DNA of 61,895 nt, from the IMG/VR virus record IMGVR_UViG_2523533510_000012; one strand, given 5' to 3'. The first letter of the stretch is position 1. Every line of letters begins with the position of its first letter. The position numbers were made by a program. Shown here piece after piece: positions 15,001-18,000 of the stretch. This DNA is from a virus. Lineage: Duplodnaviria > Heunggongvirae > Uroviricota > Caudoviricetes.

Positions 15001-18000
15001 CTTGCAAAAATATTCGGCAACGGCAAAGGACGTAGTAACAGCGCGACCATTGGAAATGGTGATTTCAGGTTGAGAAAGGACTGGGATAGTAGCCATAATG
15101 GCAGCCTCCTTGATTGGTGATTGATAACCACCGCTGGAGGTAGCAAGCTCGCTGGCGGTGGACTGTACAGGGTTGCTACAACTGGCAATCAAGGGAACCA
15201 GCCCGACCGAAGTCGGCCCCATACAGCCCACCATTGATAAGATGTGCGTGTATGTCGATACAAAAAAAGACGCTGGCGCGTCTGTATCGCCTCGATTGTC
15301 AGCGGGGTAGCAATCCCGACACCCGTTTTATGAGGTGTTCGCCAAATATAGCCCCGACATCACACGCAGTCAATACCGTTCTTTCTCAGAAACGCTTTGG
15401 CGGTGCCGCCTGCACCCCAAAACATTCCCTGTATTGGTCAGCGCCAACTTCCTGCCAGTGTTGCCCGTTCTCACGCCGTTCTCGCTCTCGCGCGGGGATA
15501 CTCTCTCATCGACCGGATCGCACCCGATGATACAGCACGTTTACGTGTAGGGGTCTAAACAGGTCATTGACGCTGTAAAGCTCCAGATTGTTAAAGAGCA
15601 TTTTGCGGCGGGTTAAGTCGCGCCGTACGACTGATTTATGTAGCCCTGTGTAAGGGCGCGATGTTTCTGGCTTGAAATAAATATAACTTGCGGTGATTTT
15701 CATGTAAATACCGTTGGTGCTTTTTAAGGGCGAGAAATTATTACTTAACTGATTTTTAAAGTGATTTATTTTTTAAGGGGGCAGATAACAGGAGGGGATA
15801 TGCAAAGAAAAACCCGGCGCATGGGCCGGGCTATTTATCTGGTCCTGTTCTCATTCAGTAGAGTAGGGGCCAAGAAATCGCACTCCGTTGAAGTGAATAA
15901 GATGAGAAGGTGCATCAGCCACCCATACCTCTGTTTCCCATGCGATTTCACCAAGATATCGCCCCATGATGGAGCGATTTGGAAAAGCGGTCACATAGAC
16001 AAGTCCGGCTGTTGATCCGGCAAACAGCCTGGCAAGCTCAGCATGCCGCTTCCCATCAACCGGTCCATGACTGGTGACAGACTCAACCAGTAGCAGCCAG
16101 TTTTTCGCAGTAAAATGTAGCACCACATCTGGCATTTTACCGTGTGAATCCACATCAACACCTAGCCCGGCCAGCAGTGGAGCGTCGAAGTAGCCCCACT
16201 TTTCGCCAGTGTCGCCAGCATAGACCAGCACGCTACCCGGAGCAAAACGTGGGGCGAAGTCCTCTATTATGGCACGGATAAGTTCGCTGTGCTCGCCGGG
16301 ACTGAGGGTTATTTGCTGGCCCGCAGCAATTTCAACAGGGATACGATTCTGTTCGCGCTCCTTAGCATAGCGGGTAACCAGCGTTTCACGCTCGGCTAAA
16401 TAGGTTGCAAGGCTATCGTGCCATGCCGGGCTGCCGAAAGTGCGTAGCATGGACAGAGCAGCAGGTTCGATCTGATAAACAGCCTTCGGGCTGTTCACTG
16501 GGCGATCGGGCTTGTCCGGATTGTAGAGGGCTACTCCAGCAGCGCAGAACTGATGCATAGACTGGCGGCGGAATGTCTCACGAGTATTGGGTGCGTAGAC
16601 CTTGCCGTAGTGCTCCCGAACCCAATTCATGATTGGTGTAATGCCCACAAGCGGATTTTCCGCGTCGGCCCATGCTTTTCCCGGTGTGAGGTTCAGGAGT
16701 GCCAGCAAACACAAAGCAGAACGCTCATTCTGCTGCGCTCTGGGCAGGCCTAAGGATGCTATAATTTGCTGAGCGGCCTCAATATAATCATTTTGGTTGT
16801 TCATGCAGTCAGAGCTCCTAGCTTAGCGTCAATATGTTCTTGCGTGAGAGTTTCTTGTTGCATAGCCCACTTGCCAAGCTCTATCAGAGTGTCACGGCTT
16901 GGGTACTTAATCATCTTGAGGTCGGTTGCATTGACCTGTGTATGCCCGTTGAAGCGACGGAAATACTTATCCACTGCGGTAGTGTTCAGGAACACGGCCA
17001 AGCCACGGGCCAGCGCCTCGGGTAACCCATGTTTGTTCTCATGAAACACGTTCATGTGATTTTCAAATCCCAACACTGAATACTCACTGAAGGTAGCAGG
17101 ATCAACGACGCTTGCTACCACTCGGCGCTTTTCCTCCTTCGACGAGAAACGACGCACCACACAATAAAAACCGTTCGGGTAAAGCCACTTTTCTGTCTCG
17201 TCGTTGCGCATGATTGCGTTGGGTTTCTTCAAACCTTCCACAGGCCAGACAGTGCTACTCATACTCAAATGGCTCGGGTAGATCAGGGGAACAGTTCCTT
17301 CTTCTGGCATGCTGCGCAAATGAGCTTTCAGTCGGAAATCAACTATCGGTCCGGTCGATACCTTCACGCCAATATCAGCCAGCGAACATTGTACGGCAGA
17401 TGATAACTCAATGGTGCTTTTCTCGAGCGTGGTCGGCACATGAATAAACCGCTCCGAATCGTCCGGGTACACAATCTGGTCAAATGGGTGTTCGTAGGTG
17501 ACTAGGTCAAAAAAGCTATCATCGGTCGAAGTTGTGACTGTAACAGCCTCCTGACGGCCTCCACGCTCCAGGCGGATGATAATATTTTCCTGCAACACAT
17601 CGTCATCCCTGAAAGCTTTGCTACGTGATTCGAACAAATGAATATGGCGGATTGCTGCCCGCTCAAGTATGAAATTACGGAACGGACGGTAATACGGTCC
17701 GTTGCAGAAACTACGTGGGATTATGGCCACTATCTGCCCGCCAGGTGCAACCTCACCTACAGCCAGTGCAACAAAGGCGGAATACAGATTTACCGTCTCG
17801 ATACCGACAGTGCGAAGAGCCTGCCGGTGGGCTGACTGGCTATTGATCTTCTTGTAAGGCGGATTAAGTATTGCATGGGTATAACCTCGATCCTGTAGAC
17901 CTTCGGCGGTTGCCAGCTCAATATAATCCCCTTCGATGATGCGGGGCGTCACTCTCCTGTACCCGGTTAAGTGCTTCGCAAGGTGACCACACAGCTTTTT

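What the first reader, a model, noticed from the sequence alone, without database searches (positions are those of the whole stretch)
15097..15850. No recognisable N gene; only a 65-aa ORF lies between the candidate pL and a tL1-like terminator
The layout mirrors lambda (cI operon terminator, then a pL-like AT-rich region, a small ORF, then a strong terminator before the first early-left gene), yet no ORF of N size with an arginine-rich motif is present. The 65-aa ORF (15506..15703) has no ribosome-binding site. The phage may use a divergent or very small antiterminator, or an RNA-based mechanism.
Basis: inference. Interest (0 to 1): 0.4.

Follow-up and report, generated by a model that had tools for sequence, protein, structure and literature searches.

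The report
N-less pL leader with boxA RNA
This Shiga-toxin phage has no N antiterminator gene (already published); its early-left leader instead carries an undescribed, conserved structured RNA that begins with a ribosomal-type boxA and sits where related phages keep their RNA antiterminator, so it is a testable candidate for a new protein-free way to read through terminators.

Summary
The window is an Oslovirus/"Eru1" Stx2a phage, identical here to P13374 and TL-2011c. No N homologue exists, and that absence is already published.

The 65-aa ORF is not a gene. Its ATG overlaps the -35 hexamer of pL, it matches no family, and its frame is broken in most relatives.

The "tL1-like" terminator belongs to an IsrK-family sRNA. 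A C4-family antisense RNA and a Rha antirepressor follow it, as in Gifsy-1 isrK-orf45-anrP and P1 c4-ant.

The new item lies between pL and isrK, at 15599..15415 on the minus strand. It is an exact rrn-type boxA (TGCTCTTTAACAA) followed by a 137-nt multi-helix RNA.
- The RNA has strong covariation and no Rfam family.
- It occurs once per phage, downstream of CI-type repressors, in phi80, HK225, Klebsiella and Edwardsiella phages and more than 200 prophage contigs.
- Sense-strand intrinsic terminators almost always follow it.
- In put-type phages the identical leader carries the put antiterminator RNA in the same slot, and the two never co-occur.

Best reading (inferred, untested): a cis-acting, N-independent, Nus-factor-assisted antitermination signal.

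The parts
15811..15832 (-). Intrinsic terminator that ends the cI-methylase-endonuclease (immunity) operon
   Evidence: 8-bp, GC-rich hairpin followed by TTTTCTTT. It lies 19 nt after the stop codon of the BsuBI-type endonuclease gene.
15782..15802 (.). Operator-like site (distal OL)
   Evidence: CATATCCCCTCCTGTTATCTG matches the 21-bp dyad CATATCACCTTTGGTTATATG of the cI/cro intergenic region in about 15 of 21 positions. Binding is inferred.
15680..15708 (-). pL promoter (TTTACA-17-TATATT); expected start near 15673
   Evidence: 10 of 12 match to consensus. An operator lies between the hexamers. The same promoter-to-element spacing recurs in relatives. The start site is inferred.
15682..15697 (.). 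Operator (proximal OL): exact copy of the OR half-site pair ATCACC-N4-GTTATA
   Evidence: One of only two exact matches in the window; the other is at 19084..19099 between cI and cro. None of 100 shuffles reached the observed count at up to 2 mismatches.
15506..15703 (-). 65-aa ORF: judged not a gene
   Evidence: The ATG (15703..15701) overlaps the last base of the -35 hexamer, and there is no SD. No Pfam or PHROG family; 'No_PHROG' in phi346. The frame has in-frame stops in 77 of 141 relatives, and the stop codon is lost in 42. The apparently synonymous differences from phi80 are the two sides of one RNA base pair.
15606..15634 (-). Remnant of put stem I and hairpin CGGCG/CGCCG just upstream of boxA
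   Evidence: TCAGTCGTACGGCGCGAC (15634..15617) matches the 5' end of the HK639, CobraSix and S9-5 put RNAs in 17 of 18 positions. The put covariance model scores only 12.2 bits (E 0.12) with stem II deleted.
15588..15600 (-). boxA, exact rrn type (TGCTCTTTAACAA)
   Evidence: Only exact copy in the window. The same 14-mer lies about 140 nt upstream of 16S rRNA in all 5426 E. coli genomes, median 7 copies. It fits the gamma-proteobacterial consensus GYTCTTTAANA (PMC5725501).
15439..15575 (-). Conserved multi-helix RNA domain (P1-P6). With boxA and flanks it forms the family element 15415..15599
   Evidence: Covariance model R1 scores 213 bits and finds one copy in the window. On the MAFFT alignment A2, 94% of cells are paired against 31-46% when partners are slid; 15 pairs change on both sides; 0 of 500 shuffles reach this. 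On 90 distinct sequences (A5), 86.5% are paired against 33-45%, with 210 double-change cells. No Rfam match at E up to 10.
15345..15373 (-). Promoter of the IsrK-family sRNA (TTGACT-17-TATATT)
   Evidence: 10 of 12 match. The -10 ends 7 nt before position 1 of the Rfam isrK match at 15338.
15263..15338 (-). IsrK-family sRNA.
   Evidence: Rfam RF01394, 61.8 bits against gathering score 50, full length. Terminator scan. The segment 15302..15290 (CUGACAAUCGAGG) pairs with hairpin 2 of the downstream C4-like RNA: -27.7 kcal/mol, 0 of 500 shuffles as good.
15151..15238 (-). C4-family antisense RNA (counterpart of P1 c4, P4 CI and Gifsy-1 STnc1160/orf45)
   Evidence: Rfam RF01695, 77.4 bits against gathering score 45, full length. 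Fold z-score -4.0. The loop UUCCCUUGAUUG is complementary to CAAUCAAGG (15116..15108), which overlaps the Rha Shine-Dalgarno sequence.
14449..15096 (-). Rha-type antirepressor/regulator gene; AGGAGG at 15110..15105, ATG at 15096
   Evidence: Pfam Phage_pRha 2.7e-32 and PHROG 995/518. phi346 annotates this start. The RefSeq P13374 start at 15234 lies inside the C4-like RNA.
13519..14436 (-). Second tandem module with different pairing specificity: promoter 14436..14407, short upstream RNA, sRNA-Xcc1/C4-like RNA 14315..14232, ORF6N antirepressor 14193..13519
   Evidence: Promoter 11 of 12. Rfam RF02221, 79.6 bits against gathering score 53. Pfam ORF6N and PHROG anti-repressor. The loop CUACUUG pairs with CAAGUAG both in the upstream RNA and at the antirepressor SD.

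Best explanation
The interval 15097-15850 is the repressor-controlled early-left promoter pL with two operator-like sites, plus its roughly 575-nt untranslated leader. It does not encode a protein antiterminator. The leader holds two RNA devices.

(1) Promoter-proximal RNA, about +74 to +235 from the expected start. It consists of a short hairpin, an exact rrn-type boxA, and a conserved 137-nt multi-helix RNA. I propose this is the phage's substitute for N/nut. The nascent RNA recruits NusB-S10 through boxA, and with them NusA and NusG. The structured domain then holds the complex on RNA polymerase, doing the job that N does at lambda nut or that put RNA does alone. Polymerases that start at pL would then resist Rho across the long untranslated leader. 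They would also read through the intrinsic terminators of the left operon (the IsrK terminator at 15283, then 5242 and 2967) to reach kil, gam, recT, exo, ssb, xis and int.

(2) Downstream RNA switch, with its own promoter. An IsrK-family sRNA, a C4-family antisense RNA and a Rha antirepressor form a known type of switch. The C4 loop masks the Rha ribosome-binding site. IsrK carries a decoy of that site and can titrate C4.

Shown here:
- The anatomy.
- The covariation of the RNA.
- boxA identity.
- Family distribution and genomic position.
- Exchange with put in the same slot.
- The Rfam memberships and base-pairing of the IsrK/C4 module.

Inferred:
- The transcription start site.
- Nus-factor binding.
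- Antitermination itself.
For: Identity and N absence:
- The window is identical to the Stx2a phages P13374 and TL-2011c over 15000-15900.
- N is absent (PMC8044961).

pL and the ORF:
- pL carries an exact OR-type operator.
- The ORF is not conserved as a reading frame.

The RNA is real:
- Structure is supported on a structure-blind MAFFT alignment and on 90 distinct sequences.
- The second set was collected with an anchor outside helix P5, so the evidence for P5 does not depend only on the first search pattern, which lay within P5.

Genomic position:
- One copy per phage.
- At least 24 different upstream and 55 different downstream contexts.
- The nearest upstream same-strand ORF is an S24/HTH CI-type repressor in 7 of 10 contexts sampled, and also in phi80, HK225, KO-TP1 and Edno5.
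- 71 of 103 contexts have a promoter-like site, mostly ending 65-135 nt upstream.
- 93 of 103 have at least one sense-strand intrinsic terminator within 1.5 kb downstream, 135 sense against 15 antisense.
- No downstream ORF family is shared by all contexts.

boxA:
- Exact rrn type.

Exchange with put:
- CobraSix (47 of 47) and HK639 (45 of 47), both put-type, share the first 47 nt of the leader with phi80 and KO-TP1.
- The leaders then carry put or this RNA. CobraSix rejoins phi80, KO-TP1 and the window at GGAATGTT[T/A]TGGG.
- The put model finds put in none of 98 loci that hold this RNA. This RNA's model finds nothing in put phages.

Operon logic:
- The right operon from pR to Q has no strong intrinsic terminator, which fits a single pL-side element. 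The left operon has several.

IsrK/C4 module:
-; gene order as in Gifsy-1 (PMC4825925).
Against: - No functional or transcript data were available, so antitermination is inferred from position and analogy.
- Terminators downstream of pL are normal in lambdoid phages, so their presence fits the idea but does not discriminate.
- rrn-type boxA complexes are established mainly as protection against Rho, not against intrinsic terminators (general knowledge; PMC5725501).
- Only 31 of 141 distinct family members have the perfect consensus boxA. Most have GCTTTTTAACAAC, with T at position 4. That position was changed in the inactivating C4T/T6C double mutant of the suhB boxA.
- The single-sequence fold z-score is modest (-2.1).
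- The outer half of helix P1 is poorly conserved in the divergent subtypes (57% of cells paired).
- A trans-acting phage protein encoded outside the roughly 10-kb loci cannot be excluded.
- The IsrK promoter lies downstream of the element, so the 15283 terminator may serve mainly to make the sRNA.
Confidence: 0.55

Rival explanations
1. The boxA-RNA element is a nut-type recruitment site for a phage-encoded protein that has not been recognised. This would be an N analogue encoded elsewhere in the genome, or one that differs from phage to phage. It would not be a protein-independent antiterminator.
For: - boxA followed by structured RNA is the layout of lambda nut sites.
- phi80 and many relatives have a small ORF of unknown function between the RNA and the first terminator: the phi80 positional 'N', PHROG 25091, unknown function.
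- The loci examined span only about 10 kb.
Against: - No downstream ORF family is shared by all contexts; the largest covers 39 of 100 and is Kil.
- The window has no phi80-'N'-like or arginine-rich ORF near pL or pR.
- No conserved boxB-like small hairpin follows boxA.
- The slot is otherwise occupied by put, which is known to act without any phage protein (PMC9378689).
Confidence: 0.15
2. The element acts only as a Rho shield or RNA-folding and stability device for a long untranslated leader, a boxA function as in rRNA, suhB or CRISPR leaders. Alternatively it is processed into a trans-acting RNA. Intrinsic terminators would be passed by ordinary partial read-through and by internal promoters (PisrK at 15373, the promoter at 14436, and others).
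For: - About 575 nt from the pL start to the Rha ATG are untranslated.
- boxA/Nus complexes are documented against Rho termination (PMC7665894; PMC5725501).
- In Gifsy-1 a fraction of transcripts reads through the IsrK terminator without a known antiterminator (PMC4825925).
- Strong internal promoter-like sites exist.
Against: - A bare boxA suffices for Rho protection elsewhere. That does not explain a 137-nt covarying domain kept across at least 55 downstream contexts.
- It also does not explain the exchange with put in the same slot. put suppresses both intrinsic and Rho-dependent termination (PMC9378689).
- xis and int lie about 12-14 kb downstream, behind two strong hairpin terminators.
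Confidence: 0.2
3. The 65-aa ORF, or a shorter internal ORF such as the 31-aa MLFNN...HRVRSGR peptide, encodes a very small, divergent antiterminator.
For: - The ORF is open in the window and in the closest relatives.
- The C-terminus is basic (HRVRSGR).
Against: - The start codon lies in the -35 hexamer and has no SD.
- No family match.
- The frame is broken in 77 of 141 relatives and the stop is lost in 42.
- Substitutions are compensatory base-pair changes, not a codon-position pattern.
Confidence: 0.02

Closest known systems
HK022 put RNAs (putL/putR) and the put-like RNAs of HK639, HK75, phiEt88 and others
   Same: - Cis-encoded structured RNA just downstream of pL in lambdoid phages that lack N.
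- It occupies the same slot in an otherwise identical leader: 47 of 47 nt shared upstream with CobraSix, and the same rejoining sequence downstream.
- One pL-side copy, as annotated for HK639.
- The window keeps a 17-of-18 remnant of put stem I.
   Different: - No homology in the functional core. The put model gives 12 bits with stem II absent and no hit in 98 loci.
- The new RNA is about twice as long and multi-branched instead of two stems.
- It begins with a boxA, which the put leaders examined lack.
- put acts without Nus factors through the beta' zinc-binding domain (PMC9378689). Whether this RNA does so is unknown.
Lambda N / nutL (boxA-boxB) antitermination
   Same: - Position at the head of the pL operon.
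- A boxA element.
- Terminators downstream that must be passed to express recombination and integration genes.
   Different: - No N gene or arginine-rich ORF.
- No boxB-type small hairpin.
- boxA is the high-affinity rrn type rather than the lambda CGCTCTTA type.
- Only one site; none on the pR side.
E. coli rrn leader antiterminator (boxB hairpin - boxA - boxC; NusA/B/E/G, SuhB, S4)
   Same: - Identical 14-nt boxA, TGCTCTTTAACAAT.
- A GC hairpin immediately upstream of boxA in the rrn leader (GCCGC...GCGGC), the window (CGGCG...CGCCG) and phi80 (GGCGAC...GTCGCC).
- No phage protein needed.
   Different: - No boxC-like UGUGUGGG.
- A large covarying domain follows boxA instead.
- Model R1 scores the rrn leader at noise level, 10.8 bits.
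- The rrn complex is known chiefly for resistance to Rho and for RNA folding (PMC5725501).
Gifsy-1 isrK-orf45(STnc1160)-anrP locus; P1/P7 c4-icd-ant; P4 seqA-CI-seqC
   Same: - Same order: promoter, IsrK sRNA with leaky terminator, C4/CI-like RNA, antirepressor.
- The C4 loop is complementary to the antirepressor ribosome-binding site and to a decoy in IsrK.
   Different: - Here the module sits directly in the pL operon, in N's position, and is duplicated in tandem with a second specificity.
- The orf45-equivalent frame runs in frame into the Rha ORF without a stop.
- No AntQ next to it.

Membership tests
Lambda-type N/nut antitermination | N protein: small basic protein with an N-terminal arginine-rich motif, encoded first in the pL operon | tested here: not met
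   No such ORF in 15097-15850 or elsewhere near pL or pR. No N in the P13374 annotation. No Pfam or PHROG N hit. Published absence (PMC8044961).
Lambda-type N/nut antitermination | boxA in the promoter-proximal transcript | tested here: met
   TGCTCTTTAACAA at 15600..15588, single exact copy. It fits GYTCTTTAANA.
Lambda-type N/nut antitermination | boxB: short hairpin with a GNRA-like pentaloop a few nt after boxA | tested here: not met
   boxA is followed after about 12 nt by the 10-bp closing helix P1 of a 137-nt domain. No conserved small hairpin lies at that place.
HK022 put antiterminator RNA | Two-stem RNA with conserved stem II (GGCGGG..CAGGA..GGCAAU) | tested here: not met
   Model R2, built from 8 put RNAs, gives a best window hit of 12.2 bits, E 0.12, with 30 model positions (stem II) deleted. 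The controls HK639 and CobraSix score 94-98 bits.
HK022 put antiterminator RNA | Located in the pL leader of a lambdoid phage without N | tested here: met
HK022 put antiterminator RNA | Acts in cis on RNA polymerase through the beta' zinc-binding domain, without Nus factors | not testable with these tools
   Needs genetics (rpoC Y75N-type hosts) or in vitro transcription.
rrn leader antiterminator | Consensus boxA bound by NusB-S10 | tested here: met
   Sequence identical to the rrn leader boxA over 14 nt. Binding itself was not tested.
rrn leader antiterminator | boxB hairpin upstream and GU-rich boxC downstream of boxA | tested here: inconclusive
   An upstream GC hairpin is present in the window and in phi80. 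No boxC-like motif. R1 against the rrn leader gives 10.8 bits, noise level.
IsrK sRNA (Rfam RF01394) | Score above the curated gathering threshold over the full model, with own promoter and Rho-independent terminator | tested here: met
   61.8 bits against 50, model positions 1-77. Promoter 15373..15345 and terminator 15283..15268.
IsrK sRNA (Rfam RF01394) | Followed by a C4/STnc1160-like RNA and an antirepressor gene, with IsrK complementary to the downstream RNA | tested here: met
   Gene order (PMC4825925). Duplex -27.7 kcal/mol, 0 of 500 shuffles as good.
C4 antisense RNA (Rfam RF01695) | Score above the gathering threshold, and a loop complementary to the ribosome-binding site of the downstream antirepressor | tested here: met
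   77.4 bits against 45. The loop pairs with CAAUCAAGG, which overlaps the AGGAGG of rha. The whole-hairpin duplex is -17.4 kcal/mol, and 48 of 500 shuffles are as good, so only modestly above chance.

The most novel reading that the evidence does not exclude
A second class of protein-independent phage antiterminator RNA exists alongside put. It combines an rrn-type boxA with a covarying multi-helix domain and converts the host Nus machinery into a terminator-resistant complex without N. This RNA would govern early-left gene expression (recombination, excision, antirepressors) in the O104:H4 and O103:H25 outbreak Stx2a phages, in phi80 (including the phi80 remnants in DH5-alpha/DH10B-type laboratory strains) and in many Enterobacteriaceae prophages.
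Probability: 0.4. Interest if true: 0.8.

Novelty: new variant of a known kind. Interest (0 to 1): 0.62.

Why it matters
RNA-only processive antitermination in phages is known from a single family, put. A second family that also carries the ribosomal boxA would show how a nascent RNA can stand in for the N protein while still using Nus factors. That would link the lambda, HK022 and rRNA systems.

It is directly testable with small reporter constructs, nus, suhB and rpoC host mutants, and cryo-EM, as was done for put.

The element heads the early-left operon of the high-virulence Eru1-type Stx2a phages, whose regulation differs from lambda and is poorly understood. It may therefore bear on how quickly these prophages excise and recombine after induction.

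Annotation also gains. Several small CDSs called in this region (the 65-aa ORF, the extended Rha start, 'antB2') overlap RNA genes and are probably spurious.

Tried and rejected
- Whole-leader folding gave only z = -1.98 and an MFE that disagrees with the covariation-supported helices. Single-sequence folding was therefore not used to define the structure.
- A k-mer comparison of OR and the pL region at k >= 8 found nothing. The operator emerged only as a split half-site pattern. A lambda-type operator pattern, TATCACC-N4-GGTGATA, gave chance-level hits.
- Rfam at E <= 10 over 13000-21000 gave nothing for 15415-15600. Rfam also holds no put family, since bona fide putL and putR gave no hit.
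- Put membership was rejected.
- A second, pR-side copy of the new RNA or of boxA was sought and not found.
- A universally co-occurring downstream protein partner was sought and not found.
- The short RNA upstream of the second module (14400..14322) does not fold better than shuffles (z = +0.85). Only its complementarity is reported.
- King et al. 2011 (put-like RNAs) and Rotman et al. 2012 (phi80 genome) could not be read. An earlier description of a phi80 pL-leader boxA or RNA therefore cannot be excluded. Ten full-text searches found none.
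Full report
**Identity of the window.** The interval 15000-15900 is 100% identical to the Stx2a-converting phages P13374, TL-2011c, phiON-2011 and others (genus Oslovirus). It is 96-97% identical to many O157 Stx2a phages. On the minus strand the order is:
- cI (19078..18365)
- an N6-adenine methylase (18270..16801)
- a BsuBI-type endonuclease (16804..15851)
- the interval under study
- two antirepressor genes
- kil, gam, recT, exo, ssb and finally xis and int

**Check of the observation.**
- A terminator ends the immunity operon (15832..15811).
- An AT-rich stretch holds a promoter-like site, TTTACA-17-TATATT (15708..15680).
- There is a 65-aa ORF (15506..15703) without a Shine-Dalgarno sequence.
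- There is a hairpin-U7 terminator (15283..15268).

The promoter is credibly pL.
- The cI/cro intergenic region holds a 21-bp dyad, CATATCACCTTTGGTTATATG.
- Its half-site pair ATCACC-N4-GTTATA occurs exactly twice in the 61.9-kb window: once there, and once between the -35 and -10 of this promoter (15697..15682).
- A 15-of-21 copy lies about 100 bp upstream (15802..15782).

**No N gene.**
- The RefSeq record of the identical phage names Q but no N.
- A scan of all ORFs for N-terminal arginine-rich motifs finds nothing near pL or pR.
- Pfam and PHROG searches of the local ORFs give no N family.

**The 65-aa ORF is not a gene.**
- Its ATG (15703..15701) shares a base with the -35 hexamer, so a pL transcript would not contain it.
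- It matches no family.
- In 141 distinct relatives of the underlying sequence, the frame carries in-frame stops within 7-25 codons of its end in 77. The stop codon itself is lost in 42.
- The two 'synonymous' differences from phi80 (CAUCG/CGAUG against CACCG/CGGUG) are the two sides of one RNA base pair.

**The 'tL1-like' terminator and what follows.** Rfam places three RNA genes on the minus strand, all above their curated thresholds:
- isrK at 15338..15263 (61.8 bits, threshold 50)
- C4 antisense RNA at 15238..15151 (77.4 bits, threshold 45)
- sRNA-Xcc1 at 14315..14232 (79.6 bits, threshold 53)

A promoter-like site, TTGACT-17-TATATT (15373..15345), ends 7 nt before its first base.

The order promoter, IsrK with terminator, C4-like RNA, antirepressor is that of the Gifsy-1 isrK-orf45(STnc1160)-anrP locus. 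It also relates to P1 c4-icd-ant and P4 seqA-CI (PMC4825925).

The pairing logic is present.
- The loop of C4 hairpin 2 (UUCCCUUGAUUG) is complementary to CAAUCAAGG, which overlaps the AGGAGG of the Rha gene.
- It is also complementary to CUGACAAUCGAGG inside IsrK (-27.7 kcal/mol; none of 500 shuffles as good).

A second tandem module (14436..13519) repeats this logic with a different sequence pair, CUACUUG/CAAGUAG, and an ORF6N antirepressor.

**The unexpected element.** Between pL and the IsrK promoter lie about 300 nt with no credible ORF. A 190-nt block of it is 93-94% identical to the pL leaders of otherwise unrelated phages: phi80, HK225 and Klebsiella phage KO-TP1. It is 78% identical to Edwardsiella phage Edno5. 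In each case it lies just after the repressor gene and pL, and before kil, gam and recT.

Pattern scans of IMG/VR gave about 190 further prophage contigs (120 and 94 stretches, partly overlapping). These yielded 141 distinct sequences of the element. Species-representative genomes of Enterobacter, Kosakonia, Kluyvera, Citrobacter and Escherichia also carry it, as do 249 of 5426 complete E. coli genomes, including phi80-derived laboratory strains.

**It is a structured RNA.**
- On a structure-blind MAFFT alignment of 33 non-redundant sequences, RNAalifold predicts 29 pairs, 13 of them with compensatory changes.
- For a curated six-helix model, 94% of cells are paired against 31-46% when the 3' partners are slid. 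Fifteen pairs change on both sides, and none of 500 shuffles reaches the observed values.
- On 90 distinct sequences the figures are 86.5% against 33-45%, 17 pairs and 210 double-change cells. This set includes divergent subtypes collected with an anchor outside helix P5.
- Helices P2-P6 are well supported. The outer half of P1 is not conserved in the divergent subtypes.
- A covariance model (R1) finds one copy in the window (15599..15415, 213 bits) and exactly one in each of the loci searched in two runs of 100 sources.
- Rfam 15 has no matching family.

**It begins with boxA.** The first 13 nt of the element are TGCTCTTTAACAA (15600..15588). This is the only exact copy in the window.
- The 14-mer TGCTCTTTAACAAT is the boxA of the E. 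coli rrn leaders. It occurs in all 5426 genomes, with a median of 7 copies, about 140 nt upstream of 16S rRNA.
- It fits the gamma-proteobacterial consensus GYTCTTTAANA (PMC5725501).
- As in the rrn leader, a GC hairpin immediately precedes it.
- Thirty-one of 141 family members have the perfect consensus. Most others have GCTTTTTAACAAC.

**It occupies the put slot.** The HK022-type antiterminator RNA put was located in HK022/O276, HK639, CobraSix, S9-5, phiEt88, UPF_BP1 and PdC23.
- The put-type phage CobraSix shares the first 47 nt of its pL leader with phi80 and KO-TP1 (47 of 47); HK639 shares 45 of 47.
- The leaders then diverge into put or into boxA plus the new RNA.
- CobraSix rejoins phi80, KO-TP1 and the window at GGAATGTT[T/A]TGGG, and matches phi80 again further downstream.
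- A put covariance model (R2) finds only a stem-I remnant in the window (12.2 bits, stem II deleted). That remnant matches 17 of 18 nt of the 5' end of put in HK639, CobraSix and S9-5.
- R2 finds no put in 98 loci that carry the new RNA, while scoring 94-98 bits on the positive controls.
- R1 finds nothing in put phages.
- The two RNAs therefore did not co-occur in any locus examined and occupy the same position.

**Context statistics.**
- The element is flanked by at least 24 different upstream and 55 different downstream sequences.
- In 71 of 103 distinct contexts a promoter-like site lies upstream, mostly ending 65-135 nt away.
- In 93 of 103, at least one sense-strand intrinsic terminator lies within 1.5 kb downstream (135 sense against 15 antisense).
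- The nearest large upstream ORF on the same strand is a CI-type S24/HTH repressor in 7 of 10 sampled contexts. A moron is interposed in the rest.
- No downstream ORF family is common to all contexts.
- In the window, the left operon contains strong minus-strand terminators at 15283, 5242 and 2967.
- The right operon has none between pR and Q. This fits a single pL-side element.

**Interpretation.** The anatomy is secure. The function of the boxA-RNA element is inferred.

The most economical reading is a cis-acting antitermination signal that replaces N/nut. boxA brings NusB-S10 and the other Nus factors. The structured domain supplies what N, or put, supplies elsewhere. pL transcription can then cross the untranslated leader and the operon's terminators.

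Three main rivals remain:
- a nut-type site for an unrecognised phage protein
- a device that only shields against Rho or aids RNA folding and stability
- no special mechanism at all, with internal promoters and leaky terminators doing the work

Caveats:
- No transcript or functional data were available.
- rrn-type boxA complexes are best known for countering Rho.
- Most family members carry a one-base variant of boxA.
- Two key older papers could not be read, so prior description cannot be fully excluded. Ten full-text searches found none.

**Verdict.** The finding as written (no N, doubtful small ORF, terminator before the first gene) is correct, but its headline is already known. Its suggested 'RNA-based mechanism' turns out to have a concrete, conserved and apparently undescribed candidate. 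I rate this as a new variant of a known kind (RNA antitermination signals in phage early leaders) and as moderately to highly interesting.

Noticed in passing
window 13519-14436 (-): A second module lies in tandem with the IsrK/C4/Rha module: promoter, short RNA, C4-like RNA (Rfam sRNA-Xcc1) and an ORF6N antirepressor. It uses a different loop/target pair (CUACUUG/CAAGUAG). PA2-type relatives have only one module.
   Followed up: partly
window 15097-15234 (-), and P13374 ORF29: The RefSeq record starts the Rha gene at the ATG at 15234, inside the C4-like RNA. The 46 codons upstream of the SD-preceded ATG (15096) are the counterpart of Gifsy-1 orf45, but here they run in frame into Rha without a stop. 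The annotated start is probably wrong, or this is a fused variant of the coupling ORF.
   Followed up: partly
window 14204-14350 (-): The 48-aa CDS annotated as 'antB2 anti-repressor' in P13374 overlaps the sRNA-Xcc1/C4-like RNA (14232..14315) almost entirely. It is probably an annotation artefact.
   Followed up: no
window 15851-18270 (-): A type II restriction-modification pair (489-aa N6-adenine methylase and 317-aa BsuBI-type endonuclease) sits between cI and pL. It appears to be co-transcribed with the repressor, like lambda rexAB, so it would be expressed in the lysogen.
   Followed up: no
window 5224-5242 and 2950-2967 (-): Two strong intrinsic terminators lie deep in the left operon. 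One follows the antB1 antirepressor gene and one is just upstream of xis/int. Both would have to be read through for excision functions to be expressed from pL.
   Followed up: no
window 19000-24470 (+): No strong intrinsic terminator lies between pR and the Q gene. The first strong ones are at 24445..24464 and 25105..25124, downstream of Q. The right operon therefore seems not to need an N-like function.
   Followed up: partly
loci such as L003 (HK225) about 3150-3235, L160, L169: In the divergent subtypes of the leader RNA, an extra hairpin with compensatory changes follows the element (CCAGUCCAUUC...GAGUGGGCUGG against CCAGCCCCUUC...GAGGGGGCUGG). It is absent from the window.
   Followed up: no
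E. coli laboratory strains (DH10B, NEB5-alpha, XL10-Gold): The phi80-type copy of the leader RNA (94% identical to the window) is present in common cloning strains that carry phi80 remnants. Existing RNA-seq data from these strains could show whether it is expressed.
   Followed up: no
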